A stretch of DNA of 53,646 nucleotides from Parcubacteria bacterium C7867-004 (GCA_001189075.1 LFCN01000004.1:1-53646), one strand, 5' to 3'. Counted from the stretch's first letter, positions 1-53,646 are shown. Notes: generated by a model not told the origin, from the letters alone. Translations and numbers: made by a program.

Positions 1-607
1 AACTCAAAGGAATAGACGGGGACTCGCACAAGCGGTGGATCATGTGGCTTAATTCGTCGATAAGCGAAGAACCTTACCAGGGCTAGAAACCAAGCTGCAT
101 CCCACCCGAAAGGGAGGGAGCCTTCGAGGGTGCTTGGCAGGTGATGCATGGTCGTCGTCAGTTCGTGGCTTGAGCTGTTCCCTTCAGTGGGGTAACGAAC
201 GCAACCCCCGTTGTCTGTTATATATTTCAGGCGAGACTGCCCCCTCACGGGGGAGGAAGGTGGGGATGACGCCAGATCAGCATGTCCCTTGATGCCCTGG
301 GCTGCACACGTGATACAATGGCCGGTACAGAAGGACGCAATACGGTAACGTGGAGCAAATCCCAAAAACCGGCCCCAGTACGGATCGAGGTCTGCAATCG
401 ACCTCGTGAAGCCGGAATCGCTAGTAATCGTGGGTCAGCAATACCACGGTGAATACGTTCTCGAGTCTTGTACTCACCGCCCGTCAACTCAAGGAAGCTG
501 GGGGTACCCGAAATCTTGCAGTTTGCAGGACTACGGTAAATTCAGTGACAGGGAGTAAGTCGTAACAAGGCACGGCTAGCGGAAGCTGGTCGTGGAACAT
601 ATCCAAT
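1..607 (+). rRNA. rrs: 16S rRNA gene, 3' ~600 nt (5' part outside window; starts at about E. coli position 907)
   Basis: Conserved 16S blocks occur in the correct order: AACTCAAAGGAAT.GACGGGG (1-22), GCATGGTCGTCGTCAG (~146), TTGTACTCACCGCCCGTCA (~468), AAGTCGTAACAAGG (~557) and the helix-45 GGAA loop (581-584). The sequence between blocks is highly divergent. The 3' end is placed by alignment to the canonical tail, +/-5 nt. Confidence 0.95.
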
Positions 608-39174: not shown

Positions 39175-40149
39175 ATGGCATTCGTTGATGAGATAACCGT
39201 ACGCGCAGCTTCCGGACATGGTGGTCCGGGTGTTGTCCGTTGGCTGCATATCAAAGGAAACGAGAAAGCGGGACCGGGAGGAGGCGACGGCGGTCGTGGC
39301 GGCGACGTCATACTCGAGGGCGTCCGAGACCTCGCGGCACTCGCGAATTACCGCTACACAAAAGTTGCGCGGGGTGCTGATGGGGAAGCCGGAGGAAGCA
39401 ACGAGATGCACGGGGCTGATGGCGAACCGTACATTCTAAAAGTACCGGTCGGTACGGTTGCCCGCATGGAGTCTACGGGCGAGACCTTCGAGATACTTTC
39501 AGAGGGCCAGCAGATACTCCTCCTTCGGGGTGGAAACGGAGGGCTCGGGAACCCGCATTTTAAGGGGCCGTCGAACCAGAATCCGAAGACCGCAACTCCC
39601 GGGAAGCCGGGCAAAGAGAGCGTAATCCACATCAGTCTCAAGCTCATCGCTGACGCGGGACTGATCGGCTTTCCGAATGCCGGAAAGTCGTCACTGCTGA
39701 ACGAGCTCACCCGGGCTCGCTCCAAGGTCGGCGCCTACCCGTTCACTACGCTCGATCCGCATCTTGGCGACTTCTACGGCTTCATACTCGCCGATATACC
39801 GGGTCTTATCGAGGGCGCCTCGGAGGGACGAGGTCTCGGTTCCCGCTTCCTCAAGCACATAGAACGCACTAGATTCCTTGTGCATCTCGTCTCGTCTGAA
39901 CAAGAAGACGTCGTCGCGGCTTATAGGTCCATACGGGACGAGCTTGCCGCGTTCGGACACGGTCTCGACGAGAAACCAGAGCTCGTAGTCCTCTCAAAGG
40001 CCGACATGCTGTCTGTTGAAGAGCGGAAAGAGCGCGTTCAGGCACTCGAGGCGGTAGCGGGGAAGGGGGTGCTCGAGCTTTCCATACTCGACGACGATCT
40101 CATGAAGTCGTTCTCAGACAACCTCACGCGTCGGCTCGGAACCCGCTAG
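39175..40149 (+). CDS. obg: GTPase Obg/CgtA
   Basis: Gly-rich Obg fold FVDE...GGPG...GGGDGGRGGDV. G-domain motifs GFPNAGKSSL, DIPGLIEGA, SKAD. Confidence 0.92.
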   Translation: MAFVDEITVRAASGHGGPGVVRWLHIKGNEKAGPGGGDGGRGGDVILEGVRDLAALANYRYTKVARGADGEAGGSNEMHGADGEPYILKVPVGTVARMESTGETFEILSEGQQILLLRGGNGGLGNPHFKGPSNQNPKTATPGKPGKESVIHISLKLIADAGLIGFPNAGKSSLLNELTRARSKVGAYPFTTLDPHLGDFYGFILADIPGLIEGASEGRGLGSRFLKHIERTRFLVHLVSSEQEDVVAAYRSIRDELAAFGHGLDEKPELVVLSKADMLSVEERKERVQALEAVAGKGVLELSILDDDLMKSFSDNLTRRLGTR

Positions 40150-41680: not shown

Positions 41681-41742
41681 CTATGTTCGAGTGGGTTTAC
41701 GTTGGGTGTTCATAACATAGTGTAAGCGAGACGAGAAAGCCT

Positions 41743-41748
41743 TATAAT
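41743..41748 (+). promoter_or_regulatory. Consensus -10 box TATAAT, 6 nt upstream of ATG 41755
   Basis: TATAAT then CTAAGG then ATG. Confidence 0.5.
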
Positions 41749-41754
41749 CTAAGG

Positions 41755-42630
41755 ATGGATGAGATAACTATTGGAGACAAGACGTACATATCGTCAAAGC
41801 AAGCTGCAAAGATTACTGGATACGCAAAGGACTATATCGGTCAGTTGTGCAGGGAAGGGCGAGTTGAGGCAAGGTTGGTTGGTAGAAATTGGTATGTGCT
41901 CGATTCCAGCATCCGAGAGCATCGTTTCGGGGTAGAAAACGAGGAAAAGACCCCTGCAAAGGCTCAGCCGGTATCTTCGGTCGAGGCATCATCGAGAGTC
42001 ACATCAGAATGGGAGCGTCCGCAGTACAAGGCTGAAGTACCATCTATGGTCCCCACGTTCGTGCCTAAACCTGCTCCGACGGTCGCTCCTGCTGAAATGC
42101 AGTCCGCATGGCGCCAATGGTTCGAGAATAAGCCTCAAGATACCCTTCCTGATGGAAGCGACGACTTCACCGAGGAGTATCTTCCGGCTGTGGTGCCTGA
42201 AGAGAAGCCTGTAGAACCTGTCGAAGAAACATATAGCGTCCCAGTGGTGCGCGTTACAGAACCAGAACAGCCGGTATACCGTGAAGAAATCCTTCAAGAC
42301 GAGCGTGTAGAGCTTCACAAGTCCTATGCAAGCCGTGAGACGGGGGAAGTCGTACCAGAAGCAAGCAGCATGGTCGTTGATCTCACGCACACTGAGCCTA
42401 ACCAAAAAGCGCGTGTTCGTAAGGCAAAGAGCCCAAAGCCTCCTCGAAATCAATCGAATCTTGTCGCAAACGCGATCCTGTTGGTAGTTACCCTAGTTGC
42501 AGTACTTACGGCAATAGTTGGAACAGGTTACGCCGAGAAGCTACTTTCAGGGACAAGTGTGGATTTCGGAGCACAAAAAGGAATCATTGATTTTCTGGGT
42601 GGAGAGAGCACGTATAAAAAAGCTAATTAA
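41755..42630 (+). CDS. Membrane-tethered Xis/MerR-type HTH protein (HTH, ~185-aa Pro/Glu-rich linker, one TM helix, ~25-aa ectotail)
   Basis: YISSKQAAKITGYAKDYIGQLCREGRVEARLVGRNWYVLDSSI fits the excisionase-type HTH pattern. TM helix LVANAILLVVTLVAVLTAIVGTG lies near the C-terminus. Confidence 0.75.
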   Translation: MDEITIGDKTYISSKQAAKITGYAKDYIGQLCREGRVEARLVGRNWYVLDSSIREHRFGVENEEKTPAKAQPVSSVEASSRVTSEWERPQYKAEVPSMVPTFVPKPAPTVAPAEMQSAWRQWFENKPQDTLPDGSDDFTEEYLPAVVPEEKPVEPVEETYSVPVVRVTEPEQPVYREEILQDERVELHKSYASRETGEVVPEASSMVVDLTHTEPNQKARVRKAKSPKPPRNQSNLVANAILLVVTLVAVLTAIVGTGYAEKLLSGTSVDFGAQKGIIDFLGGESTYKKAN

Positions 42631-42686
42631 TATAAAGGTATCTCGTCTCGGATAGACAAGTTATCAATAGAATCTATCTCAAATGG

Positions 42687-42722
42687 AAAAAGGACTCGCC
42701 GTTGCAACGGCGAGTCCTTTTT
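42687..42722. terminator. Rho-independent terminator (A-tract, stem, T-tract)
   Basis: AAAAA-GGACTCGCCGTT-GC-AACGGCGAGTCC-TTTTT. Confidence 0.8.
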
Positions 42723-42777
42723 AATATGACCACCTTTGTATTTTAGGCCTTGTAATAGATGCATATGTATTTACTGC

Positions 42778-42807
42778 GCTCATATACCTATATATAGGTA
42801 TATGAGC
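42778..42807. promoter_or_regulatory. Perfect 30-bp palindrome, candidate operator
   Basis: GCTCATATACCTATA|TATAGGTATATGAGC. Its 13-mer TATATATAGGTAT recurs at 43021-43033, and CTCATATA recurs at 42977-42984. Confidence 0.45.
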
Positions 42808-43316
42808 TACACAGCAGTGTTCAATCTTAATAGGTAAGGTTGGATCTCAAGAGGTAGCAAAAACTCGTGCCAATACTTAACTGGTAAAAAATAGTAATAG
42901 AACTGTTTAGTGATTCACGTAAAAGGCAAATGAGTGCATCTTCCGTACGCTTTCTCCTTTGTTTTAGCCGATATTACTCATATATAATAGGTTTTTCGCG
43001 TTACCGACATGCTCGAAACGTATATATAGGTATTAAAAAGTTTTATTATCGATTACCGATCATTTTGAAGTGAATCGTAAGTTTCTTTGAATTTTTGGAC
43101 GCGTTAGGAGGTATTTCGTTCGAAGTCCTGATCGTTATTTGAGAATTTTGATGTCTTTCGTCCATAATCGGAGAAGGTAAAAATAATTTTTGTAAGTATA
43201 GTTCCGTATGAATTTTTTTCATGAATCATTACTGAAGATTATCCCCATGCTTGAATGCAATGAATGCCGAAAAGCCAGTTAAACTATAACTAATTCGGAT
43301 ATCCGACTTCTGTACC

Positions 43317-46300
43317 TTGAATCCACTCCTCGCAAATAATCTCATCTCTACAAAAGAGGCTTCGGAGTCTTCTGGGTACCATGCAGATTATCTCGCGCGC
43401 CTCTGCCGCGAGAAAAAAATTGAAGGAACTCAGATCGGGCGCGCATGGTTCGTGTCTCGCGATTCGCTTGAGGCATTCGTCGTAGCGCAAGCTGCACGAA
43501 AGCGAGAGCTATCCGAAGCCCTCTCTCGCGAACGAGAGCTTGAATATCATTCTGTTCGGTCGACTTCGTCCGGTATGCGCGCAAATGTTGCGCAGGTCAT
43601 AAGCGGGAATACTGAACGTGTTCGAGCAGTAGGTGCTCTGCTCAGGAGTGTGCAACGGAATTCCGGCATTAATAGGTACGCGAGTCAGCTGAGCGCAAGC
43701 GCGCTTACGCTCCTGCTCGTCGCTACCGGCGCGTATGTCGCATTCAGCGGGATGGGAGCGCGCCTTGCTGAAGGAGCTCTGACGAATGCGTACGGACTGC
43801 GAGAGCAGGTGATTGGATCACTCGCTCTCGTCGATGAGTTCTCTGCAGGCGAACGTGCACGCATTGCATCAGGTCTTGAGAATTCGCGCGACATGCGAAT
43901 CGCGAGTGCAGGACGCAGCATTGATGAGAATCTGTCGCGAAGCATCGCGCGTGTACCATCGCTCATAGAAGATGCACACACGCCAATCGCATTCGTGCCT
44001 CCGTCCGCGCCTGCAACTGTCCGCGAGGACGCGCTCGCACGAATCGAATCAATGCACTTGTTCGTGCAATCGCTTGCACACCCAGAGACGATTCTCTCCG
44101 GAATCGCGCGCGGGTATGTAGCATTCGGAGATTTTGTATATGCCACAACCGATCACATGCTCCACGCATACATCGCGAGCATAAAGGACACTGGCAATGC
44201 TCTGCTTTCATTCGGCACATTCTCCCGCGATATCGCGACCGATGTGCCTTACCAGATCGTCATCACGGAGATCGCGCTCGGAAATGCGATAAACGAGGCA
44301 TCGGTACTCTCGTTCGCAGAACTCGATGCCCTTGGCTCTCTAATCGCTAACAGTACGGCGCTTGCAATACAGTCTGCACCGTCCCTGTATGACCAGGGCA
44401 TTCTTGCATTCGTTGAGACTGCACCGCATGTCGCGTCAGGCATCGTTGATGGCGAAATCGCGGTCGGTACCGTCGCACAAGAAAGCGTTACTGGCATGCT
44501 TTCAGTACAGGACTCTCTTGTTCGCGGCTCCGTGAATGGAACGCGCATGGCGGCAGGAATGATGGCTGATGGTTCCATTGCCCTGGCATCGGCAGTGTCT
44601 GCTTCGCCGGCTGCAGTAGTCGATCTTGCGCTCGGGGTGGCAGGGCAATCGGCACGTATGCTTGAGCAGGGTTCTCTGCCTGAAGCCAAGCTTACGGCAA
44701 ATACGGATCAGGCGAGCGATCTGGTTGCGAATCCGCTCATGTCGCTCGATATCGACCTACTTCCCGCGTCGCTTCGCGCGGAGTTTGCCCGTATCGCGCG
44801 CGCGACCGCAAGCATGATCGACGGCATGTTCGCGCCGCTCGCGCGCTTCGCTGGCTCTCCCGGGACGACATTGCTCACCGTCATAACCGAGGGTGATGTT
44901 ACGAACGTGCGACCGGGCTTGGAATATCCGGCTGACACCGATGCTGGTACGGCGAACGGAAACACGTACGTCACGAATCTGTATCCGCAAGCGGGAGCGA
45001 ACGAGAGCTACATCGATGCACGTATCGAGGAACTACGCTCGCTCTTCTACCGGAATATCTCAGCGGTGGAGAAGCGACGCAGTCGATCGAGTAGCGGCGG
45101 CTCGACGACCGTCGTAAATAATTACGGCGCCGCGACCGAGTCCCCATCGTTCTCTGCATTCGACTTCCTTGCGGTCGGCCGTAACTCGACGACGACAATC
45201 GTCGGCGATAACGGAACCTCGACCTTCTCCGGCGGTATCCTTGCCACTGACATCGAAGCGACCGGATCGATCGCAGGGCCGTACGTGCTCGCGACGTCGC
45301 CGACCGCGACGTCCGTATTCTCCGGAAGCGTTACGGTCGGGAACGACGTGACGCTCGGTAGCAACGCGAGCGATACGCTCACGGTGAATAGCCGCATCTC
45401 TTCAGACCTCATCCCGTCGGCAACCAACACCTACGATCTCGGTTCGACCACGAGCGCATGGCGCGCCGGGTACTTCACGGGTGCCGTGAATGCCGGAAGC
45501 TTCGTGTCTGCCGCGGCAAGTGACGGCTGCGCCTCATGGGCGAGCGGCGTATTAACGAGTATCGGCGTCCCGTGTGGTTCGGGTTCCGGCGGCCTCACGT
45601 CGCTCAACGGCCAGACCGGGGCAGTACAGACCTTCGCCACTTCTTCCGCAAACGGCGGCTGGGGCTTCGCATCTGCAGGTGACGTGCATACGCTCAACAT
45701 CCCGGTTGCGAGCGCGAGCAACGCACTCGGCTTGCTCTCGAATACCGATTGGTCGACATTCAACGCGAAGCAGGCGGCGCTCTCGTTCGTGTATCCACTT
45801 GTTAATACCGCGAACAGCATTTCACTCGCGTTTGGTACGACGACCAACAACATCTGGGCAGGAACCCAGACGTTCGCTGATCTGCTTGCGACGAATGCAA
45901 CTACTACGTCGTTCGGCATCAATAGCGAGACGTTCCTCGATCTCACCGGGTCGGGTCTCACGAACGTAGGTGGCGTTCTCACGCTCGACCGCACGGGCGA
46001 CTGGACGGGAACGTTCGACGGTCAGGAAGGAACGTACTATCTCAATCGCGCTAATCACACGGGTACCCAGCTCGCGTCCACCATCAGTGACTTTGATACG
46101 GCAGTGAATACGTTCGTCGCTGCATCGACTACAATCGCAAAGACCTATCAGCCGAACACCTGGACGGGTCTCCAGACGTTCGGGAACGGCATCGCTGTTA
46201 CGGGTGAAGTAGCAGCTGATTATTTCACTGCGGCATCGGTTACCGCTACCTCTACCTTCCCGCTCGCGAACATCACCAGCGCACTCCGGTTCGGATCCGA

Positions 46301-49300
46301 TTACCTGACGGATCTCACCGGCTCCGGTCTGTCGATCGTCGGCAATGCGCTTACAATAGGCACGGTCGGACAAGCCAACGGCGGTACCGGATTCACGACC
46401 TACGCAGCGGGGGATCTCTTGTACGCTGATCTGACCGGAACGCTCGCGAAGCTTCCAGTAGGTACCGCAGGCCAGGTGCTGAAAGTTGCCGGTGGTGTCC
46501 CGAGTTGGGGTGCTGATCTTACGACCGGAGGTGGGGGAGGTGCGGGAGCATGGGCAACCACTACCGACAGTCTCGCGATCTACCCAGCCGATACGTCAGA
46601 TGTCGTTATCATCGGAAGCAGCGCGACGACAACTGCCAACAGCATCTTCGAAGTATTTGGCACGTCGTACTTCTCGAATACGCTCGGCATCGCAACTACC
46701 GCGCCGGGGTCACTACTCTCGATCGGAGGTGTCGCAAATTTCACTACCGCCACTTCGACGTTTTACGGAACCGGCGGTATCAATCTCGCAAGTGGCTGCT
46801 TCGCAGTCGGCGGCAACTGCCTCTCGCTCTCTTCGCTGACCGGTACGCTCAGCGTCGCGCGAGGCGGAACCGGTTCGACCACGCTCACCGGTATCCTTAA
46901 AGGTAATGGCACTGGCTCGATATTGACCGCGGTCGCCGGCACCGACTATCAGGCGCCGCTTTCGTTCCTGTATCCGCTCGTAAACACCGCCAACAGCATT
47001 TCGCTGGCGTTCGGCACCACTACCGCGAACGCCTGGAGTGCCCTCCAGACATTCAACGGCGGCGTAACCATAGGCACGTTGAATGGCCCGCTTCAAGCGA
47101 ATAACGGTGTCGTCTCAGCAACGACAAGCATCGGGGCGCTCTACGGTGGTACCGGCTCGACCACACTCTCGGGCATTCTGGTAGGTAATGGTACTTCTGC
47201 CGTAAACTCCCTGGTGCTCCCATCGTTCCTTACACTCTCAGGCAATACGCTCTCGCTCGGTACGCTCGGCATTGCTAACGGCGGCACCGCCACCACCACC
47301 TTCTACAACGGCGGCGTAGTCTTCAGCGACGGCACTAAACTCACGCAGTCTTCCGCTCCAGCTAACTTCTTTTGGAATGAGACGAACAAATTCCTCGGAC
47401 TTGGCACTTCGTCTCCGTGGGCGCAGCTATCCATCAATCCGGACAACATTGCAGGCCCTGCGCTCGCTATAGGCTCGTCAACGGGTACGAGCTTTATGGT
47501 TACGAACGGTGGAAATGTAGGTATCGGCACCTCGACAGTCGGATCCAAACTCACGCTTGCTGGCGGAAACTTTACGCAGCTTGCGAGTGGTAATCCGACT
47601 CAAAAGGGTGTTTACAACACGACGGGTAACGCAGGGACATCAGTCATCGTCGGCAAATACGCGTACGTCGCGGATGATACTGCCGGTCTTCAGATTATCG
47701 ATGTCTCGAACCCGGCATTGCCGACGCTCGTCAGTACGCTCGACACGTCAGGCTTCGCGACCGATATCGCGGTTGCCGGAAAGTATGCCTACATCTCCGA
47801 TTATGCTGGCGGCCTCAAGGTGATCGATATATCGAATCCTATATCGCCGATCCTTGTTGGCACCTACTCGACCGGCGCCTTCGCCTACTTCAGCCTCGCG
47901 GTCTCCGGAAAGTACGCGTACGTCGTCGATATCACAGGAGCAACGATGATCGTCATCGATATCTCGAACCCGGCGGCACCGGTCGGCGTCGCATCGCTTT
48001 CCGGTCTCTCATCGCCTCAGGACATTCAGGTTGTGGGTAAGTACGCGTACATTGCCGACAACTTCAGCGGTCTGCGTATCGTCGATATCTCAAACCCTCT
48101 GGCGCCGAGACTCATCAGCACGACCGATACTCCGTGGCTCGCCTATGGCGTATATGTCTCGGGCAAGTACGCGTACATCGGTGACGGCGACACACCCGCT
48201 GGCGGAATTAAGATCATCGATATCTCGAACGCAGCATCGCCGTCCGTCGTCGGAGCTCTCGACACGACGGGCAACGCGAAGGGAATCTACGTATCCGGCC
48301 GCTACGCATATGTCGCGGACGGCTCCTCCGGTATCCAGGTCATCGACGTGGCAAGCTCCACCGCGCCTTCGCTTGTGGGGACCTATAATACTTCGGGCTC
48401 AGCCTATGGCGTGACTGTGGTCGGCAAGTACGCCTACGTCGCTGACCTCAGTGCTGGTCTTCAGATCATTGATATCAACGGCACCGAAGTTCCGGCACTC
48501 TATGCAGGCAATATTGCGACGAATATTCTCAACGCATCAGAAGGCATTACTTCTGGGGGCGACATTTCTGCTTGGGGAAGCCTGTTTGCGGGTAACGGCC
48601 TGAACGTAAATGGATTCTCGAACTTCAGCGCATCGACAACGAAGTCCCAGAACGTCTCGATACTCTCGGTCTCCAATGCGACGAGCACGCAGCCTTTGTT
48701 CACTGCGCTCTATAACGGGAACATCGGTATCGGCACCTCCTCGCCGTTCGCGAAGCTTTCGCTTCATGCGTTCGATGGGGAGACCAACAGGACGCTGTTC
48801 ACGATCGGCTCGTCGACCGCCGCTGCGACCTCCACACTCTTCTCGATCGGCAATGACGGCGTCATAACCTCAGCAGCAGCAGCAACCTCGACCTTCACGA
48901 ACGGCTTAGCGGTAACCGGCGGCTGCGTATCGGTAGGCGGTGTCTGCCTTACGTCGAGTACTGGTTCCGTCACCTCGGTTAACGCGTCGGGAGGAACCAC
49001 CGGTCTCACGTTCTCGGGTGGCCCGGTTACCTCATCCGGCACGCTCACGCTCGCCGGAACGCTTGGGGTCGCCAACGGCGGTACCGGAGCGGTAACGCTC
49101 ACGGGTCTCTTGAAGGGAAATGGCACGAGCCCGTTCACGGCAGCAGTTGCCGGTACCGACTACCAGGCGCCGCTTTCCTTCGTCTATCCGCTCGTGAACA
49201 CCGCCAACAGCATCTCGCTCGCGTTCGGCACGACTACTGCCAATCAGTGGAGCGCACTCCAGGAATTCAATGGAGGAGCCTCAACCACGCAGCTCACGGT

Positions 49301-52079
49301 TACCGGGAATACGTATTTCCCTGGCTCGGGAATCTGGAGCAGTACGGGAAGCGTCGGTATCGGCACGACAACCCCTTTGCGCTTACTGCATATCGTGAGC
49401 AATACGGCGACCACCGACAGCACGGACTACCTCACACGCCTTACGCGTAATACGAGCGGCACCGCTGCAGTTGGACTTGGTGTCGGAGAGGAGTTCGAGC
49501 TCGAGAATGACGGTGGCGCGCTCGCAACCGCGGGCACCGTCGAGTTCATCTGGTCGAACGCCGCAGCCGGAACAGAGACTTCGGACTTCATCGTCTCCTC
49601 GCGCCGCGCGGGCGTCGCAACCACTTCGTTCCGTGCGGTGAACGGTGCGATCCGCTCGAACGCGGTACAGAACGATGCATCAGTACCTGCATTCTCCTTC
49701 GAGAATGACACGAACTCGGGTCTCACGAGCATCAGCAATGACGTGATCGGACTCGGTGTCGGTGGCAACACTATCGCGCGCATTTCTGCGAACGGTCTCT
49801 ATACGGGAGGAAGCACGGCCCTTAATGCTCGCAACAGCCTCTCCTCTTCCGGTATCGTCGCATCGAACGCGGCGGTGGGACTCTTCGGCGGTACCACCAA
49901 CACGATGATCGCCGCGCTCGGCAACGCGCAGGCGCTTACGATCTCCGCGAGCGATGTCTACACCGGCGTCCTCATCCCGGCAGGCACCATCAGCGGCTCG
50001 GGCACCACTAACTACCAGCTCCTCGCGCAGATGGCGATAAAGCCGTTCGTGTTCACGCCGGGAAGCGCCACTGTGGTGAACTCAGCCAGCCTCTACATCG
50101 AGGACGCAGCTGCGGCAGGCTCAACCGCAGGGGACTATGCGCTGTGGGTTGATAACGGTACGAGCCGTTTCGATGGTTCGGTCGGTATCGGCACTTCGAC
50201 CCCAGGCTCACTCCTCTCCATCGGAGGCGTCGCCAACTTCGGTACCGCAACCTCCACCTTCTACTCCAGCGGGGGACTCAACCTCACCGGTGGCGGTTGC
50301 TACGCCGTGAACGGTACGTGTGTTACGAACTTCAGCAACACCCTCGCCAACGGCGGCACCGCCACCACCACCTTCTACAACGGCGGCGTAGTTTTCTCTG
50401 ATGGTACGAAGCTCACACAGTCTTCAAGCCCAAGCAATTTCTTCTGGAGCGAATCGAACGCGCGTCTTGGACTCGGTTCTTCGACGCCGTGGGCGCAGCT
50501 GTCCATCGCATTGCTCCACTCATTGGGTATCACAGAACAGCTTCGCCTTGGATATAACACGAGCAACTATACCTCATTCACTACTGCATCTAATGGCGCC
50601 TTCACGATTGCGCCAGTAGGAGCGGCCGGAGGCGTCTCATTATATGCAGGAAATGGCATTGCAAGTAACGGTTGGGCAATTGGCGGAACAGATATACGAG
50701 GCCTCCTCACGCTTCAAAAGTCGGATACTTCTACATACTCCGTAAATGCTGATATGGGTGACGCGGGTCGAACATTCGTGATGGAAAACACTAATACGGG
50801 AAATAATGCTAATCAATTTGCGAATATTACACTTCAAATAAACCCTAACGGAAATATTGGCAGTGGGCGAGTCCTCGGTGATTTCCGTTTAATACGTGAG
50901 ACTGCAAACTCTACAAATTCATTCTTCCTATTCTCGGCATTTCGTCAGGATGGGACATATAAGGATTTTGCTCGTATTGGATTCGACACCAGTTATTTCG
51001 TAGGGAACCTCGGTATCGGTAGCACCACGCCATGGGCGCAGCTCTCAGTAAATCCAGACGGCATCACGGGCCCTGCGTTTGCTATCGGATCAACGACTTC
51101 CACGAGCTTTGTGGTTACGAACGGCGGAAATGTTGGTGTCGGCACCACGACGCCCGGCGCAACGCTTTCGGTACAGGCAGGATCCACGATCAAGCCGCTC
51201 CTAGTTTCCAGTAGCGCAGGCTCAACGCTTCTGAGCATTGATGGCTCCGGCAATGCTGCGATTGGGGGAGCATATACTGGTACGGGAATTAGTACGTTCA
51301 GTACGTCTGCAACAGCCGCAGTCGTTCAGTTTCAGCATACCGCAAACTCCGGAAGCGATATTTATGGCGCAAACGTCCTATCGACAAATACGGCAGCCAC
51401 GGGTGGTTCAATAGGTCTACGTTCAGTTTCTATACGCCAAGGTGCTGGAACAGCTACAAGTCATTATGGCGTATACGGACTGGCACAATATGCTGGTGCG
51501 AGTACTCAGGCCACTACCTCAGGCATCTACGGACTCGCACAAAATACTGGGGCAGGAAGCATCACTGATGCATTCAGTATCTATGGCGATCTCCCGACCG
51601 CTTCGGCAGGTTCCATAACGCGCGCCTGGGCCGGAGGTTTCAATGGAAATGTCTGGATAGGTGGAAGCGTTGGTATCGCAACCACCTCCCCAGGCTCACT
51701 CCTCTCCATCGGAGGCGTCGCCAACTTCGGTACCGCAACCTCCACCTTCTACTCCAGCGGGGGACTCAATCTTACGGGCGGCGGTTGCTACGCCGTGAAC
51801 GGTACGTGTGTTACGAACTTCAGCAACACGCTTGCAAACGGCGGCACCGCCACCACCACCTTCTACAACGGCGGCGTAGTCTTCAGCGACGGCACTAAGC
51901 TCACACAGTCTTCAAGCCCAAGCAATTTCTTCTGGAGCGAATCGAACGCGCGTCTTGGACTCGGTTCTTCGACGCCGTGGGCGCAGCTGTCCATCTTCCA
52001 CGAGCTTTGTGGTTACGAACGCGGGGCGCGTGGGTATCGGTACCTCAACTCCTGGTTCAACACTTGCAGTGGGAGGTAG
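43317..52079 (+). CDS. Giant cell-surface fibre/adhesin-like protein, frame-0 part (2,920 codons): HTH, TM helix, stalk, then tail-fibre-like modules and an LVIVD propeller
   Basis: TTG start. LISTKEASESSGYHADYLARLCREKKIEGTQIGRAWFVSRDSL is the HTH. TM helix at aa ~124-145. There are repeated xVGIGTxxP and ANGGT motifs and seven KYAYVAD blades. The frame ends 84 nt after a repeat-boundary frame break. Confidence 0.85.
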   Translation: MNPLLANNLISTKEASESSGYHADYLARLCREKKIEGTQIGRAWFVSRDSLEAFVVAQAARKRELSEALSRERELEYHSVRSTSSGMRANVAQVISGNTERVRAVGALLRSVQRNSGINRYASQLSASALTLLLVATGAYVAFSGMGARLAEGALTNAYGLREQVIGSLALVDEFSAGERARIASGLENSRDMRIASAGRSIDENLSRSIARVPSLIEDAHTPIAFVPPSAPATVREDALARIESMHLFVQSLAHPETILSGIARGYVAFGDFVYATTDHMLHAYIASIKDTGNALLSFGTFSRDIATDVPYQIVITEIALGNAINEASVLSFAELDALGSLIANSTALAIQSAPSLYDQGILAFVETAPHVASGIVDGEIAVGTVAQESVTGMLSVQDSLVRGSVNGTRMAAGMMADGSIALASAVSASPAAVVDLALGVAGQSARMLEQGSLPEAKLTANTDQASDLVANPLMSLDIDLLPASLRAEFARIARATASMIDGMFAPLARFAGSPGTTLLTVITEGDVTNVRPGLEYPADTDAGTANGNTYVTNLYPQAGANESYIDARIEELRSLFYRNISAVEKRRSRSSSGGSTTVVNNYGAATESPSFSAFDFLAVGRNSTTTIVGDNGTSTFSGGILATDIEATGSIAGPYVLATSPTATSVFSGSVTVGNDVTLGSNASDTLTVNSRISSDLIPSATNTYDLGSTTSAWRAGYFTGAVNAGSFVSAAASDGCASWASGVLTSIGVPCGSGSGGLTSLNGQTGAVQTFATSSANGGWGFASAGDVHTLNIPVASASNALGLLSNTDWSTFNAKQAALSFVYPLVNTANSISLAFGTTTNNIWAGTQTFADLLATNATTTSFGINSETFLDLTGSGLTNVGGVLTLDRTGDWTGTFDGQEGTYYLNRANHTGTQLASTISDFDTAVNTFVAASTTIAKTYQPNTWTGLQTFGNGIAVTGEVAADYFTAASVTATSTFPLANITSALRFGSDYLTDLTGSGLSIVGNALTIGTVGQANGGTGFTTYAAGDLLYADLTGTLAKLPVGTAGQVLKVAGGVPSWGADLTTGGGGGAGAWATTTDSLAIYPADTSDVVIIGSSATTTANSIFEVFGTSYFSNTLGIATTAPGSLLSIGGVANFTTATSTFYGTGGINLASGCFAVGGNCLSLSSLTGTLSVARGGTGSTTLTGILKGNGTGSILTAVAGTDYQAPLSFLYPLVNTANSISLAFGTTTANAWSALQTFNGGVTIGTLNGPLQANNGVVSATTSIGALYGGTGSTTLSGILVGNGTSAVNSLVLPSFLTLSGNTLSLGTLGIANGGTATTTFYNGGVVFSDGTKLTQSSAPANFFWNETNKFLGLGTSSPWAQLSINPDNIAGPALAIGSSTGTSFMVTNGGNVGIGTSTVGSKLTLAGGNFTQLASGNPTQKGVYNTTGNAGTSVIVGKYAYVADDTAGLQIIDVSNPALPTLVSTLDTSGFATDIAVAGKYAYISDYAGGLKVIDISNPISPILVGTYSTGAFAYFSLAVSGKYAYVVDITGATMIVIDISNPAAPVGVASLSGLSSPQDIQVVGKYAYIADNFSGLRIVDISNPLAPRLISTTDTPWLAYGVYVSGKYAYIGDGDTPAGGIKIIDISNAASPSVVGALDTTGNAKGIYVSGRYAYVADGSSGIQVIDVASSTAPSLVGTYNTSGSAYGVTVVGKYAYVADLSAGLQIIDINGTEVPALYAGNIATNILNASEGITSGGDISAWGSLFAGNGLNVNGFSNFSASTTKSQNVSILSVSNATSTQPLFTALYNGNIGIGTSSPFAKLSLHAFDGETNRTLFTIGSSTAAATSTLFSIGNDGVITSAAAATSTFTNGLAVTGGCVSVGGVCLTSSTGSVTSVNASGGTTGLTFSGGPVTSSGTLTLAGTLGVANGGTGAVTLTGLLKGNGTSPFTAAVAGTDYQAPLSFVYPLVNTANSISLAFGTTTANQWSALQEFNGGASTTQLTVTGNTYFPGSGIWSSTGSVGIGTTTPLRLLHIVSNTATTDSTDYLTRLTRNTSGTAAVGLGVGEEFELENDGGALATAGTVEFIWSNAAAGTETSDFIVSSRRAGVATTSFRAVNGAIRSNAVQNDASVPAFSFENDTNSGLTSISNDVIGLGVGGNTIARISANGLYTGGSTALNARNSLSSSGIVASNAAVGLFGGTTNTMIAALGNAQALTISASDVYTGVLIPAGTISGSGTTNYQLLAQMAIKPFVFTPGSATVVNSASLYIEDAAAAGSTAGDYALWVDNGTSRFDGSVGIGTSTPGSLLSIGGVANFGTATSTFYSSGGLNLTGGGCYAVNGTCVTNFSNTLANGGTATTTFYNGGVVFSDGTKLTQSSSPSNFFWSESNARLGLGSSTPWAQLSIALLHSLGITEQLRLGYNTSNYTSFTTASNGAFTIAPVGAAGGVSLYAGNGIASNGWAIGGTDIRGLLTLQKSDTSTYSVNADMGDAGRTFVMENTNTGNNANQFANITLQINPNGNIGSGRVLGDFRLIRETANSTNSFFLFSAFRQDGTYKDFARIGFDTSYFVGNLGIGSTTPWAQLSVNPDGITGPAFAIGSTTSTSFVVTNGGNVGVGTTTPGATLSVQAGSTIKPLLVSSSAGSTLLSIDGSGNAAIGGAYTGTGISTFSTSATAAVVQFQHTANSGSDIYGANVLSTNTAATGGSIGLRSVSIRQGAGTATSHYGVYGLAQYAGASTQATTSGIYGLAQNTGAGSITDAFSIYGDLPTASAGSITRAWAGGFNGNVWIGGSVGIATTSPGSLLSIGGVANFGTATSTFYSSGGLNLTGGGCYAVNGTCVTNFSNTLANGGTATTTFYNGGVVFSDGTKLTQSSSPSNFFWSESNARLGLGSSTPWAQLSIFHELCGYERGARGYRYLNSWFNTCSGR
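46848..47063 (+). repeat. 216-bp in-frame module (copy 2 of 3): GGTG..LTG.LKGNGT...AVAGTDYQAPLSF.YPLVNTANSISLAFGTTT
   Basis: Same length and near-identical peptide at 49062-49277. A partial copy lies at 45777-45875. Confidence 0.85.
47607..48482 (+). repeat. Seven tandem ~43-aa LVIVD-type repeats (predicted beta-propeller)
   Basis: The pattern G[KR]YAY[VI][AGSV]D...GL.[IV][IV]D[IV]S[NA]...P recurs seven times. Confidence 0.8.
49062..49277 (+). repeat. 216-bp in-frame module (copy 3 of 3)
   Basis: LGVANGGTGAVTLTGLLKGNGTSPFTAAVAGTDYQAPLSFVYPLVNTANSISLAFGTTTANQWSALQEFNGG. Confidence 0.85.
50200..50507 (+). repeat. ~308-bp direct repeat, copy 1 (PGSLLSIGGVANFGTATSTFY...ANGGTATTTFYNGGVVFSDGTKLTQSS...PWAQLSI)
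   Basis: Aligns base-for-base with 51688-51995 at offset 1488. Blocks 50203-50281 (79 nt) and 50411-50507 (97 nt) are identical. Confidence 0.95.
51688..51995 (+). repeat. ~308-bp direct repeat, copy 2
   Basis: See copy 1. It ends exactly at the frame break. Confidence 0.95.
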
Positions 52080-53646
52080 CGCATATGTTTCAGGTCTTAT
52101 AAGTACTCTAGGTATCAGTGTCAAAAATACCTCGGGTACTCTTTCCTTCCTACCGTCTACAACCGCACTGCTTGTGAACGCTGATCCTGCGCAAGTAAAT
52201 CGAGCTGCGCGTTTCACCAGCTCTCCTTATACTATCGATATTGCTGATGTTAGCAGCGGTTTTGGGCTTAGTTCTTCAGATGGAACTAACATTGCATTTC
52301 TCAGTGATACTCCTACCGGAGCGGGCATAAACGTGACCGGAGGTACGTATGGTGTATATGCACCTTCAGCAACAAATAAGAATTACTTTGGAGGTTCGGT
52401 CGGTATCGGCACCACCACACCTGGTTCGCTTCTCTCTATCCAGGGCGTCGCTAACTTCGGTACCGCAACCTCCACCTTCTACTCCAGCGGAGGACTCAAT
52501 CTTACGGGCGGCGGTTGCTACGCCATAAACGGAACCTGCATCGGCGGTTTCACTAACACCCTCGCCAACGGCGGCACCGCCACCACCACCTTCTATAACG
52601 GCGGCGTAGTTTTCTCTGATGGTACGAAGCTTACGCAGTCTTCGAGTCTCGCCAACTTCTTCTGGAGCGAATCGAACGCGCGTCTCGGACTCGGTTCTTC
52701 GACGCCGTGGGCGCAGCTGTCCGTCAATCCGAACGGAATTACGGGTCCTGCATTCGCAATTGGGTCTTCGACCGCGACGAGCTTCATGGTTACGAACGGG
52801 GGACGGGTAGGTATCGGCACTTCTTCCCCATACGCTGTCCTCTCGCTAACTGGCCCCGCGACTGCTGATGGTCAGGCTGCAACTCCGTTCCTTGGCCTCT
52901 TTGGATCTGCGGGAGGCATAACGGCCGGTGGCAATGGAGGTGCAGGGGCACGGGGCATTATTAAAGCTGGAGAGGGAGGATCTACCGATACTGATTTCAC
53001 CGATGGCGGTGCTGGTGGACTACTAACCTTCTCTGCTGGAAAGGGAGGATATTCTGGCGGATTCTTGGGTAACGGCGGTACTGGTGGCGCACTAAATCTC
53101 TTTGGAGGAAATGGGGGAGATGCAGTGGATGGTTTCAGCTCGTATGGAGGAGGTGGCGCTGTGAATATAACCGCCGGTGCGGCCGGAACGACCGGAATCG
53201 TCGGCGGCCCTGGAGGAAATGTAGTGATAAATGGAGGCGATGCTCCAACCAATACGCTCGATGGCAACGTCCTTCTCGCGAATCTGCGCGGAAAGGTGGC
53301 CGTCGGTTCGACCTCGCCATACGCCAAGCTCTCAATCCATGCCGCTGACGGCGCGACCGATGGTGCACTCTTTGCTATCGGCTCCTCGACTGCTGCCGCA
53401 ACCACGACACTCTTTACTATCGGCAACACCGGTATACTCACTTCGACCGCTTCAGCAACCTCGACCTTCTCGAGCGGCCTTTCGGTAGCGGCGCTCAGCA
53501 TCACCGGCTCCGCTACCTCGACTGCAGCTAACGGATTCAACATCACCGGAGGCTGCTACGCCATCAACGGCACGTGCGTCGGCGCCGGCTCCTTCTCAAA
53601 TACCCTCGGCGCAGGAGGTACCGGCACCACCACCTTCTACAACGGC
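51997..53646 (+). CDS. Continuation of the giant protein in the +1 frame, open to the window edge (partial; about 550 codons without a stop)
   Basis: I translated this frame codon by codon and found no stop from 51997 to 53646. It encodes the same module motifs (VGIGTTTPGSLLSIQGVANFGTATSTFY, ANGGTATTTFYNGGVVFSDGTKLTQSS, PWAQLSVNPNGITGPAFAIGS). Repeat copy 3 sits at offset 730 (= 1 mod 3) from copy 2. Confidence 0.75.
52420..52725 (+). repeat. ~306-bp direct repeat, copy 3 (more diverged, +1 frame relative to copies 1-2)
   Basis: Same peptide module. A further partial copy starts at ~53500 and is cut by the window end. Confidence 0.9.

What the first reader, a model, noticed from the sequence alone, without database searches (positions are those of the whole stretch)
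41755..43490. Two adjacent proteins share an N-terminal Xis/MerR-type HTH followed by a single TM helix: possible membrane-tethered DNA-binding pair
The 291-aa protein and the giant protein begin with clearly homologous ~45-aa segments:
- YISSKQAAKITGYAKDYIGQLCREGRVEARLVGRNWYVLDSSI
- LISTKEASESSGYHADYLARLCREKKIEGTQIGRAWFVSRDSL

Both fit the excisionase/MerR-type HTH pattern (x-S-x-K-E-A-A..G.s...i..L.r.G.i....iGR.W.i....l). Each then has a low-complexity linker and exactly one TM helix, so the HTH should be cytoplasmic and the rest outside.

The short paralogue has almost no ectodomain (~25 aa), while the long one has more than 3,200 aa. This resembles ToxR/CadC-type one-component membrane regulators, but with a different HTH class.

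Hypothesis: the pair couples surface or host contact to DNA binding or nucleoid tethering. The short protein could act as a partner or competitor at the same DNA sites.
Basis: partly seen in the sequence, partly recalled or inferred. Interest (0 to 1): 0.75.

Follow-up and report, generated by a model that had tools for sequence, protein, structure and literature searches.

The report
Membrane-anchored DNA-binding-type domains on a giant surface protein pair
In a tiny uncultured (Patescibacteria/Kaiserbacteria-type) bacterium, a small membrane protein and the neighbouring giant surface protein each begin with the same excisionase-like DNA-binding-type domain on the inside of the membrane. The pair and several DNA motifs at their promoters are conserved in hundreds of species, which suggests an undescribed link between a cell-surface fibre and the chromosome.

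Summary
ORF A (41755-42630, 291 aa) and giant ORF B (43317 onward, at least 3,444 aa) share an N-terminal HTH_17/Xis-type winged helix (43% identity, E=2e-10). AlphaFold models it at pLDDT 90-98. The closest solved folds are Pukovnik Xis, BldC, RacA and TraN. Each protein has one TM helix, and the positive-inside rule puts the HTH in the cytoplasm.

The module Obg-GatB-A-(~600 bp AT-rich spacer)-giant B recurs in at least 224 species-level genomes. A's HTH is more conserved (81%) than GatB (69%), whereas the rest of A is 27% identical.

Both promoters carry near-invariant motifs:
- CGAGACGAGA in A's promoter, with its inverted copy right after A's stop codon.
- A DnaA-box-like TTATCC[A/C]CA upstream of B.
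- The palindrome TAATTCGGATATCCGAC between B's -10 box and its start codon.

Best reading (about 0.42): these are membrane-tethered, sequence-specific DNA binders that autoregulate the giant-fibre locus. DNA binding itself is untested. Rivals are a RodZ/CbpM-like protein adaptor, a non-specific nucleoid tether, and an inert anchor. No annotation or literature was found. I rate it a new variant of membrane-anchored HTH proteins.

The parts
41727..41736 (+). E1: CGAGACGAGA (two tandem CGAGA) in the promoter of gene A, just upstream of the -10 box
   Evidence: Exact match. It is conserved as C[G/A]AG-N-C[G/A]AGA at the same place in most related loci.
41743..41748 (+). -10-like TATAAT of gene A, 6 nt before the ATG (leaderless or near-leaderless mRNA inferred)
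   Evidence: Read from the sequence. TATACT or TATAAT sits at the same distance from the ATG in the related loci.
41755..42630 (+). Gene A: 291-aa HTH - linker - TM - short tail protein
   Evidence: ORF. A full-length family of 1,452 database proteins, all 'hypothetical'. Relatives found in 224 species-level genomes.
41755..41928 (+). A residues 1-58: winged HTH (beta-beta-alpha-alpha-beta-beta-alpha), nearly invariant
   Evidence: pLDDT 89-95. Foldseek: Pukovnik Xis TM 0.69-0.70, rmsd 1.6 A; BldC TM 0.72-0.77. Median 81% identity to the window, against 69% for GatB.
42010..42126 (+). A residues 86-124: two conserved cytoplasmic linker motifs (W..P.Y..E....VP, and the amphipathic helix MQxAWxxWF)
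   Evidence: Invariant or nearly invariant columns in 110 sequences. Helix 111-124 in the model.
42460..42528 (+). A residues 236-258: single TM helix, preceded by a K/R-rich stretch
   Evidence: Kyte-Doolittle maximum 2.72. One TM in 75 of 75 orthologues. K+R count 3.96 on the N-side against 0.88 on the C-side.
42529..42627 (+). A residues 259-291: 33-aa conserved extracytoplasmic tail (DFGxQKxIxDFLGGxSxY)
   Evidence: Alignments A1 and A2.
42640..42662 (+). E1': imperfect inverted repeat ATCTCGTCTCG-GATA-GACAAGTT, 10 nt after A's stop codon. Its left arm TCTCGTCTCG (42641-42650) is the reverse complement of E1.
   Evidence: 71.5% of cells paired against 27-45% when slid, with little covariation. 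TCTCGTCTCG is exact in 46 of 75 loci, 6-35 nt (45 of 46 within 19 nt) after the stop.
42687..42722 (+). Intrinsic-terminator-like hairpin after gene A
   Evidence: 18-nt perfect arms flanked by A- and T-runs.
42778..42807 (.). 30-bp perfect palindrome GCTCATATACCTATA/TATAGGTATATGAGC. A partial second copy lies at 43018-43033.
   Evidence: The core CTATATATAG is in 13 of 75 spacers but occurs only 3 times in 770 kb outside them, and the outer arms covary.
43239..43247 (+). E2: TTATCCCCA, a DnaA-box-like element at a fixed distance upstream of the giant gene
   Evidence: TTATCCNCA (up to 1 mismatch) is present in 71 of 75 loci, in 5-nt bins about 90-105 nt upstream of B's HTH (the scanned stretch ended 21 nt before the HTH). 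Background is 0.074 per 100 nt. It occurs once per spacer.
43280..43285 (+). -10-like TAAACT of the giant gene (TATTAT, TAGAAT or TAAAAT in relatives)
   Evidence: Positional conservation in the aligned upstream regions. This is inferred; it was not picked up by the consensus scan.
43291..43307 (.). E3: TAATTCGGATATCCGAC, containing the 12-bp palindrome TCGGATATCCGA, between the -10 box and B's start codon
   Evidence: Unique in the window. The 17-mer is identical in 24 of 75 loci and within 1 mismatch in 49 of 75. CGGATATCCG occurs almost only at this position in the fetched loci.
43317..52079 (+). Gene B: giant protein, 2,920 aa in frame from TTG 43317
   Evidence: Orthologues are 4,097-7,275 aa.
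43341..43484 (+). B residues 9-56: winged HTH
   Evidence: pLDDT 97-98. Foldseek: Pukovnik Xis TM 0.69-0.71, RacA-DNA complex 0.60, TraN at 30-31% identity. HTH_17 at 26.5 bits.
43458..43643 (+). B residues 48-109: long charged helix continuing from the HTH, with the conserved Q..RK.....L...RE.EY motif
43674..43760 (+). B residues 120-148: single TM helix (signal anchor)
   Evidence: Present in 70 of 75 orthologues within the first 260 aa.
47625..48551 (+). B residues about 1437-1745: seven LVIVD beta-propeller repeats in the ectodomain
   Evidence: PF08309, 54.5 and 162.7 bits. Repeat starts listed.
51994..53646 (+). Continuation of the giant ORF in another frame, running off the window
   Evidence: The break lies inside a repeated unit, so it is either an assembly collapse or a real frameshift.

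Best explanation
Genes A and B encode two paralogous membrane proteins, each with a cytoplasmic excisionase/BldC/TraN-type winged helix-turn-helix at the N-terminus.

A is essentially a tail-anchored HTH. It has the HTH, about 175 aa of flexible cytoplasmic linker with two conserved motifs, one TM helix and a 33-aa outside tail. B is a type-II anchored giant surface fibre. It has the HTH, a long helix, one TM helix and more than 3,300 aa outside, including an LVIVD propeller; orthologues also carry Ig-like and tail-fibre-type S74 chaperone domains.

My best reading is that these HTHs bind DNA sequence-specifically at their own locus. The candidate sites are the CGAGACGAGA repeats in A's promoter and just behind A, and the palindrome TAATTCGGATATCCGAC that lies over the likely transcription start of B. 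Together they would form a membrane-tethered autoregulatory circuit for the giant gene. A would be the dedicated regulator. B's own HTH would give feedback, and possibly tether its very long gene to the membrane while the protein is being made and exported.

Shown here: the architecture, fold class, topology signals, conservation of the pair and conservation of the DNA motifs.
Inferred: that the HTHs bind DNA, which motif each binds, and the regulatory outcome.
For: 1. Fold and family. Both N-termini are HTH_17-type. They model at pLDDT 90-98 as beta-alpha-alpha-beta-beta-alpha. Their best structural and sequence matches are nearly all DNA binders: Pukovnik Xis, RdfS, Tn916 Xis, BldC-DNA, RacA-DNA and TraN.
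2. Charge. A's HTH carries a net charge of about +4.5 and B's about +1.9. B's HTH is followed by a linker of about +3.2.
3. Topology. The K/R bias at both TM helices points to a cytoplasmic N-terminus. It is N-side rich in 95% of A orthologues. For B it is 60% N-side rich against 13% C-side rich.
4. Selection. A's HTH is 81% identical across genomes in which GatB is 69%, Obg 65% and the rest of A 27%. B's HTH is 60% against 28% for the region after it.
5. Matching cis-elements. The spacer is otherwise unalignable, yet both promoters hold near-invariant repeat or palindromic motifs in operator-like positions. These motifs are specific to this locus in the window and in about 0.8 Mb of flanks.
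6. Co-occurrence. E3 is missing where the downstream gene is not a typical giant or its HTH is divergent (L031, L067, L080). E1' is absent behind A in L085 and E1 is absent from the promoter region in L087; in both lineages A's HTH is not the invariant type.
7. Tandem copies. Family members with 2-3 tandem HTH copies before the TM recall TraN and BldC, which bind repeated DNA sites.
8. Context. The neighbourhood is housekeeping (Wzy_C/TPR-MurB-SecA-Obg-GatB) with no integrase called among the neighbouring genes. These are therefore not prophage excisionases.
Against: - No experiment or computation here links the HTHs to any DNA.
- The window's own sequences fall just below Pfam's HTH_17 cut-off.
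- Foldseek E-values are not significant because the domain is small.
- The conserved motifs could be bound by other factors. E2 is a textbook DnaA box.
- B's HTH varies (57% pairwise identity) while E3 stays invariant. I found no correlation between E3 half-site variants and B's recognition helix, so B's HTH may not read E3.
- HTH-fold domains are known to serve as protein-binding modules: CbpM is among the fold hits, and RodZ is known from the literature.
- Conservation higher than housekeeping enzymes is unusual for a local transcription factor.
Confidence: 0.42

Rival explanations
1. Protein adaptor (works like RodZ or CbpM). The cytoplasmic HTH-fold domains bind a highly conserved cytoplasmic protein, for example a cytoskeletal, divisome or secretion component, rather than DNA. 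This would position or organise the giant surface fibre. A would be a scaffold that uses its linker motifs and outside tail to bridge partners.
For: - A's HTH is more conserved than GatB or Obg. That pattern is typical of interfaces with an essential, conserved protein.
- A's linker carries two conserved short motifs, and its outside tail is also conserved, as in scaffold proteins.
- CbpM, a MerR-like fold that binds the CbpA J-domain, is among the fold hits.
- RodZ (HTH-TM, binds MreB) is a precedent from the literature.
- Synteny with SecA is conserved.
Against: - All close structural and sequence relatives except CbpM are DNA binders.
- The domain is basic.
- This reading does not explain the locus-specific, near-invariant DNA motifs at both promoters.
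- No RodZ-type domains (HTH_25, DUF4115) were detected.
Confidence: 0.22
2. Nucleoid-membrane tether (works like RacA or Noc, or transertion). The HTHs bind DNA with low or broad specificity. They hold the chromosome, or the 10-20 kb giant gene while it is transcribed, translated and exported, against the membrane at the site of the fibre. They have no real regulatory role.
For: - B's model matches the RacA-DNA complex (TM 0.60, probability 0.99), and like RacA its HTH is followed by a long helix.
- Variants with 2-3 tandem HTHs would increase avidity for DNA.
- Orthologues carry tail-fibre S74 chaperone domains. From what is known of that domain, this suggests a trimeric fibre and so three HTHs per fibre.
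- The encoded proteins are 3,400-7,275 aa, so the N-terminus would be made long before synthesis of the protein ends (inference).
Against: - Near-invariance of A's recognition helix and of specific motifs argues for sequence-specific recognition.
- A separate short paralogue is not needed for simple tethering.
- Only one or two sites per locus were found, not arrays like the RacA ram sites.
Confidence: 0.18
3. Topogenic plug or inert anchor. The small folded N-terminal domain only fixes the N-in orientation and keeps the N-terminus from being exported during Sec-dependent export of a huge ectodomain. The HTH fold is a historical accident.
For: The module sits at the extreme N-terminus of thousands of CPR proteins of very different length (2,815 clusters). 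It is always followed by charged sequence and one TM helix.
Against: - An inert plug would not be held at 81% identity while the rest of the protein drifts to 27%.
- It would not need 2-3 tandem copies.
- It would not explain a dedicated short paralogue with almost no ectodomain, conserved next to the giant gene in the 75 loci where both genes could be read.
Confidence: 0.06

Closest known systems
TraN (ORF14/AM32) of Enterococcus plasmid pIP501, PDB 4p0y/4p0z/6g1t
   Same: It is the best PDB match by sequence profile (E=8.4e-5) and a high-probability fold match (30-31% identity to B's HTH). It has the same excisionase/MerR-like winged HTH. TraN carries two tandem copies, as some members of this family do. 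It binds double-stranded DNA.
   Different: TraN is a soluble cytoplasmic protein of a conjugation system. It has no TM helix and no extracellular part, and it is plasmid-borne rather than in a housekeeping chromosomal locus.
Excisionase/BldC-type HTH_17 proteins (mycobacteriophage Pukovnik Xis 4j2n, RdfS 8dgl, Tn916 Xis 1y6u, Streptomyces BldC 6ama)
   Same: Same small fold (TM 0.63-0.77 normalised to the target, rmsd 1.6-2.3 A for most) and the same Pfam family. They act as monomers that assemble on repeated DNA sites.
   Different: These are stand-alone proteins of about 55-70 aa, mostly on mobile elements and with a partner integrase. Here the domain is fused to a TM anchor, sits in a housekeeping neighbourhood and has no integrase among the neighbouring genes.
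ToxR/TcpP/CadC-type membrane-bound one-component regulators
   Same: Same topology: an N-terminal cytoplasmic DNA-binding domain and a single TM helix, with regulator and target genes adjacent. They show that a membrane-tethered protein can regulate promoters directly.
   Different: Their DNA-binding domain is the OmpR/PhoB-type winged helix (Trans_reg_C), which was not detected here. They have a periplasmic sensor domain. A has only 33 aa outside, and B has a structural fibre of more than 3,300 aa.
RodZ
   Same: Cytoplasmic N-terminal HTH, then a basic juxtamembrane region, then one TM helix. It shows that such an HTH can bind a protein (MreB) instead of DNA.
   Different: RodZ has an XRE-type five-helix HTH and a C-terminal DUF4115 domain. 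Neither was detected here. RodZ is not paired with a giant paralogue.
RacA (Bacillus subtilis chromosome anchor; PDB 5i44) and Noc
   Same: RacA is a MerR-like winged HTH followed by a long helix, and it fastens specific chromosomal sites to the cell envelope. B's model matches the RacA-DNA complex (TM 0.60). Noc brings DNA to the membrane.
   Different: RacA reaches the membrane indirectly through DivIVA, and Noc uses an amphipathic helix. Neither has a TM helix or an ectodomain. Sequence identity to RacA is only 7%.

Membership tests
Pfam HTH_17 (PF12728) / excisionase-MerR superfamily winged HTH | Significant match to the family profile | tested here: inconclusive
   The window's own sequences score 19.7 bits (A) and 26.5 bits (B) against a cut-off of 27. 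TIGR01764 gives 21.3 bits against 28.8. Across the family, 34 of 35 orthologous segments match at E<=0.01, best 3.4e-10.
Pfam HTH_17 (PF12728) / excisionase-MerR superfamily winged HTH | Fold: strand, helix-turn-helix, two-stranded wing, C-terminal helix | tested here: met
   AlphaFold pLDDT is 90-98 with exactly this order of elements. Foldseek TM scores are 0.6-0.77 to Xis, BldC, RdfS, RacA and TraN.
Pfam HTH_17 (PF12728) / excisionase-MerR superfamily winged HTH | Binds double-stranded DNA | not testable with these tools
   Only indirect support: a basic domain and conserved operator-like motifs next to both genes.
ToxR/CadC-type membrane one-component regulators | OmpR/PhoB-type (Trans_reg_C) cytoplasmic DNA-binding domain | tested here: not met
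   The Pfam scan of A and of B's first 500 aa at E<=1 shows only HTH_17 as a DNA-binding domain.
ToxR/CadC-type membrane one-component regulators | Single TM helix with the N-terminus in the cytoplasm | tested here: met
   One hydrophobic segment in each protein. K/R bias on the N-side: 3.96 against 0.88 in A and 2.03 against 1.03 in B. This is a prediction only.
ToxR/CadC-type membrane one-component regulators | Periplasmic or extracellular sensor domain | tested here: not met
   A has a 33-aa tail. B's ectodomain is a repeat-rich fibre with LVIVD repeats, and orthologues add Ig-like and S74 domains. No sensor domain was detected.
RodZ | XRE-type HTH (HTH_25) plus a C-terminal DUF4115 domain | tested here: not met
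   No such Pfam hits. The fold is a winged HTH_17, not a five-helix XRE domain.
RodZ | HTH binds MreB | not testable with these tools
   No interaction data. Whether MreB is present in this genome was not examined.
MerR-family transcription factors | Winged HTH followed by a long dimerisation helix and a C-terminal effector-binding region; binds between the -35 and -10 boxes | tested here: inconclusive
   B has a long helix directly after the HTH and a weak fold match to MtaN. There is no MerR or MerR_1 Pfam hit and no effector domain. E1 lies just upstream of A's -10 box, which is suggestive only.
Phage or ICE excisionase (recombination directionality factor) | Encoded with an integrase on a mobile element | tested here: not met
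   The neighbours are Wzy_C/TPR, MurB, SecA, Obg and GatB in the window and in relatives. The synteny is kept across at least 224 species.

The most novel reading that the evidence does not exclude
A whole lineage of ultra-small bacteria wires its largest surface structure directly to its chromosome. The giant fibre's first 60 residues would be a sequence-specific DNA-binding domain that, as soon as it is translated, binds the palindrome over its own gene's transcription start. This would shut off further initiation and pin the 10-20 kb gene to the membrane for co-transcriptional, co-translational export. The invariant short paralogue A would set the threshold or compete at the same sites. That would be a cis-acting, co-translational autoregulation and transertion device with no described equivalent.
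Probability: 0.15. Interest if true: 0.88.

Novelty: new variant of a known kind. Interest (0 to 1): 0.68.

Why it matters
Patescibacteria (CPR) make up a large share of bacterial diversity. They live attached to other cells, and almost nothing is known about how they control or build their attachment structures.

This analysis defines a conserved two-gene module (at least 224 species; 2,815 protein clusters share the N-terminal module). In it, a 3,400-7,275-aa surface protein and a small partner both carry a cytoplasmic DNA-binding-type domain, next to unusually conserved promoter motifs.

If the domains bind those motifs, this would be:
- a new class of membrane-tethered regulators (HTH_17 instead of OmpR-type);
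- the first case, to my knowledge, of a giant surface protein that carries its own DNA-binding domain;
- a directly testable handle (defined protein domains plus defined 10-17 bp sites) on gene regulation in uncultured CPR bacteria.

If instead the domains bind a protein, the module identifies a conserved cytoplasmic organiser of the surface fibre.

There is also a practical point. Public gene calls often start B downstream of the HTH, at non-ATG starts or at Met87, so the architecture is hidden in databases.

Tried and rejected
- **Word-indexed homologue searches with B's N-terminus.** They gave nothing (1-600) or only 2 hits (1-170). The exhaustive representative search was needed.
- **Replication origin in the AT-rich spacer.** Rejected. 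There is about one DnaA-box-like site per spacer. The GC-skew turn at about 43 kb coincides with the start of the compositionally odd giant gene.
- **Long-range RNA pairing between E1 and E1'.** Rejected. The promoter copy and the post-stop copy vary independently. For example, CGAGGCAAGA lies upstream while TCTCGTCTCG lies downstream in L001 and L006-L008.
- **E1' as a structured RNA hairpin.** Weak. 71.5% of cells are paired, but 29 sequences have a C-A mismatch and there is little covariation. The left arm's sequence is what is conserved.
- **E3 as a 5' RNA hairpin.** Unlikely. The left half varies without compensating changes while the right half ATCCGAC stays fixed.
- **Known RNA families or small ORFs in the spacer.** None credible.
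- **Prophage excisionase remnant.** Rejected by the housekeeping synteny and the absence of an integrase among the neighbouring genes.
- **Correlation between E3 half-site variants and B's recognition helix.** None seen.
- **Literature searches** for HTH-anchored CPR giant proteins or for HTH_17 with a TM helix found nothing relevant.
- **Source annotations** for the sampled homologues that carry a name are 'hypothetical', apart from one fragment labelled 'excisionase family DNA binding protein'.

Full report
**1. What is at the coordinates**

ORF A (41755-42630, +, 291 aa) and ORF B (TTG 43317 onward, +) are the only long ORFs here, and they lie on the same strand. A 686-bp spacer with no credible ORF or known RNA separates them. 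The 2-kb composition window around the spacer (42001-44000) has GC 0.47, against 0.52-0.60 for the other windows.

They align at 17/40 identities, BLASTP E=2e-10. Both hit Pfam HTH_17 just under the curated cut-off: 19.7 and 26.5 bits against 27. B also hits TIGR01764 'excisionase family'.

A Kyte-Doolittle scan gives one strong hydrophobic segment in each protein: A 236-258 and B 125-148.

B's in-frame ORF is 2,920 aa. At about 51994, inside a repeated unit, the reading frame changes and the ORF then runs off the window. Reading through gives at least 3,444 aa.

**2. Is the HTH real?**

AlphaFold2 was run on A with 110 homologues. It models residues 1-58 at pLDDT 89-95 as strand-strand-helix-helix-strand-strand-helix. 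The linker is mostly disordered apart from a helix at 111-124, and there is a TM helix at 235-257.

B(1-170) models at pLDDT 97-98 for residues 9-80. The HTH continues into a long helix (48-109), and a TM helix follows at 120-144.

Foldseek against the PDB returns these matches (TM scores normalised to the target):
- Mycobacteriophage Pukovnik Xis: 0.69-0.71, rmsd 1.6 A
- BldC-DNA: 0.72-0.77
- RdfS
- Tn916 Xis
- RacA-DNA: 0.60
- TraN: 30-31% identity
- CbpM

The E-values are not significant because the domain has only about 50 residues.

A sequence profile of 35 A- and B-type HTHs finds TraN of pIP501 as the best solved relative (E=8.4e-5). Of those 35 segments, 34 hit PF12728.

**3. Topology**

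In 75 orthologous pairs, A always has exactly one hydrophobic segment. The 15 residues before it hold 3.96 K+R on average, against 0.88 after it. The N-side is richer in 95% of loci.

B has 2.03 against 1.03. The N-side is richer in 60% of loci and poorer in 13%. A strongly charged segment precedes the TM.

By the positive-inside rule, the HTHs are cytoplasmic. This is a prediction, not a measurement.

**4. The pair is a conserved module**

A belongs to a full-length family of 1,452 database proteins, all 'hypothetical' and all from Patescibacteria, Paceibacterota or Kaiserbacteria-type assemblies. A scan of one genome per species found relatives in 224 genomes.

The local gene order (Wzy_C/TPR-MurB-)SecA-Obg-GatB-A-spacer-giant is kept in the window and in relatives. 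It also holds in more distant lineages where A has two tandem HTHs.

An HMM of the HTH was run on six-frame translations of 84 fetched loci. In 75 distinct loci, A is followed by a second HTH that opens a very long ORF; the spacers between them have a median length of 605 bp, most 400-770 bp. Complete orthologues are 4,097-7,275 aa. They carry LVIVD, bacterial Ig-like and tail-fibre-type Peptidase_S74 domains. The window's copy shows seven LVIVD repeats.

Gene callers often start B downstream of the HTH. The public call for this very gene starts at Met87.

**5. Strength of selection**

In the same set of genomes, median identity to the window is as follows:

| Segment | Median identity to the window |
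|---|---|
| A's HTH | 81% |
| GatB | 69% |
| Obg | 65% |
| Rest of A | 27% |
| B's HTH | 60% |
| B residues 59-330 | 28% |

A's linker is not mere low complexity. W86, P89, Y91, E94, V99-P100 and M115-Q116-x-A118-W119-x-x-W122-F123 are invariant or nearly so. So are G256-T-G258 in the TM and the tail motif DFGxQKxIxDFLGGxSxY. B has a conserved helix motif Q..RK.....L...RE.EY right after its HTH.

**6. The wider family**

An exhaustive search with B(1-170) finds 2,815 clusters (at 50% identity) with E<=0.001. Many of these proteins are 2,000-7,275 aa with the HTH at residue 1. Some members have two or three tandem HTH copies before the single TM helix. The ten sampled are unnamed or 'hypothetical'. 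I found no paper describing this architecture.

**7. Conserved non-coding DNA**

The spacers are AT-rich (median GC 0.39 against 0.53 for the loci) and cannot be aligned in general. A few short blocks are nevertheless almost invariant.

- **(a) Upstream of A.** The arrangement is ...TTCATAAC...A-CGAGACGAGA-AAGCC-TATAAT/TATACT-N6-7-ATG. In the window the motif is at 41727-41736 and the -10 box at 41743-41748.
- **(b) After A's stop codon (6-35 nt, nearly always within 19).** TATCTCGTCTCG-(gata)-GACGAGAT lies at window 42640-62. Its left arm is the reverse complement of (a) and is exact in 46 of 75 loci. Pairing is 71.5% with little covariation. The promoter copy and the downstream copy vary independently. 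Sequence, not an RNA helix, therefore seems to be what is conserved.
- **(c) Upstream of B.** A DnaA-box-like TTATCC[A/C]CA lies at window 43239-47 and is present in 71 of 75 loci at a fixed distance. A -10-like hexamer follows (43280-85). Then comes TAATTCGGATATCCGAC (43291-43307), which contains the palindrome TCGGATATCCGA. In most lineages it directly abuts the ATG; in the window's clade it lies 9 nt before the TTG start.

The 17-mer in (c) is identical in 24 of 75 loci and within one mismatch in 49 of 75. It is unique in the 53.6-kb window and almost unique in the fetched flanks. It is absent where the downstream gene is not a typical giant or has a divergent HTH (L031, L067, L080).

Its core CTATATATAG occurs in only 13 of 75 spacers (and 3 times in 770 kb outside them). 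Its outer arms covary, so it behaves as a hairpin. In L014 it forms the stem of a terminator-like hairpin 83 nt after A's stop.

**8. Interpretation**

The points above are what one expects of sequence-specific DNA-binding proteins that regulate their own locus:
- the fold class;
- the basic charge;
- the cytoplasmic location;
- the extreme conservation of A's recognition surface;
- equally conserved repeat or palindromic motifs placed over the core promoters of exactly these two genes.

Membrane tethering is not an obstacle in principle. ToxR, TcpP and CadC regulate promoters from the membrane (established knowledge). In ultra-small cells, a 175-aa flexible linker would reach much of the cytoplasm (inference).

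I therefore rank 'membrane-tethered autoregulators of the giant-fibre locus' first, at about 0.42. In this reading A is the dedicated regulator, and B's own HTH provides feedback and possibly cis-tethering.

The link between HTH and motif is inferred, not shown. E2 is a textbook DnaA box and may be read by DnaA. B's variable HTH does not track E3.

The rivals are:
- a RodZ/CbpM-like protein adaptor (0.22);
- a RacA/Noc-like nucleoid tether without regulatory specificity (0.18);
- an inert topogenic plug (0.06).

**9. Comparison with known systems**

The system works like ToxR/CadC in topology, but it fails two of that family's defining features: the OmpR-type DNA-binding domain and the sensor ectodomain. 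Its domain belongs to the HTH_17/excisionase-MerR superfamily, with TraN, Xis and BldC as the closest relatives. Unlike all of those, it is TM-anchored and chromosomal. It is not RodZ, because it has no XRE-type HTH and no DUF4115.

I class it as a new variant of a known kind (membrane-anchored HTH proteins). The unusual twist is that one carrier is a giant surface fibre.

**10. Verdict**

Interest is 0.68. The architecture and the cis-elements are solid, widespread, unannotated and directly testable, but the key functional claim of DNA binding remains untested.

Noticed in passing
window 51994-52079 (and on to 53646): The giant ORF changes reading frame inside a repeated unit ('...WAQLSI | SSTSFVVTN...'). 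This is either a collapsed repeat in the assembly or a real frameshift. Read through, the protein has at least 3,444 aa and still runs off the window.
   Followed up: partly
window 43317-43577: The public gene call for this giant protein (P0121, 2,834 aa) starts at Met87 and so lacks the HTH. Calls in related loci (L002-L004) are also truncated at the 5' end. The real start is TTG here and ATG in most lineages, so the architecture is hidden in databases.
   Followed up: yes
window 43239-43247; same relative position in 71 of 75 related loci: A perfect or near-perfect DnaA-box sequence, TTATCC[A/C]CA, sits at a fixed distance upstream of the giant gene's -10 box. It occurs once per spacer, so this is not an origin. 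It might mean DnaA-dependent (cell-cycle) control of the giant gene.
   Followed up: partly
window 42778-42807 and 43018-43033: There is a 30-bp perfect palindrome with a TATATA core, plus a second partial copy. The core recurs in 13 of 75 spacers but almost never outside them. The outer arms covary, which keeps the hairpin. In L014 it forms the stem of a terminator-like hairpin 83 nt after gene A's stop. Its function is unknown.
   Followed up: partly
window 41727-41736 (+), 42641-42650 (-), 39885-39894 (-): Gene A is bracketed by inverted copies of CGAGACGAGA, one in its promoter and one just after its stop codon. A third exact copy lies inside obg; about 0.1 exact copies of a 10-mer are expected by chance in the window (my estimate).
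   Followed up: partly
window, upstream of 26 gene starts (e.g. 32902, 36643, 41755): Almost no gene in the window has a Shine-Dalgarno sequence. Several have -10-like TATA boxes a few nucleotides before the start codon, which suggests widespread leaderless or short-leader mRNAs in this organism.
   Followed up: no
window 1-607, 995-1070, 1128 onward: The 3' end of the 16S rRNA and a tRNA-Ile(GAT) are followed directly by protein-coding ORFs, with no 23S rRNA. The rRNA genes appear to be unlinked.
   Followed up: no
proteins P0124, P0134, P0163, P0180, P0193, P0232, P0155, P0177, P0240; locus L090 6001-27645: Other members of the family carry two or three tandem copies of the HTH before the single TM helix. 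One is a 7,214-aa giant with two copies.
   Followed up: partly
L087 7366-7629 (-): In a distant lineage, a small soluble MerR/HTH_17 protein (87 aa) is encoded divergently, right next to the A-like gene. It is a possible additional regulator of the same locus.
   Followed up: no
window about 42000-46000: Cumulative GC skew peaks at about 43 kb and falls through the giant gene, although all genes stay on the + strand. This probably reflects the Thr/Ser/Gly/Ala-rich composition of the giant protein rather than a replication landmark.
   Followed up: no
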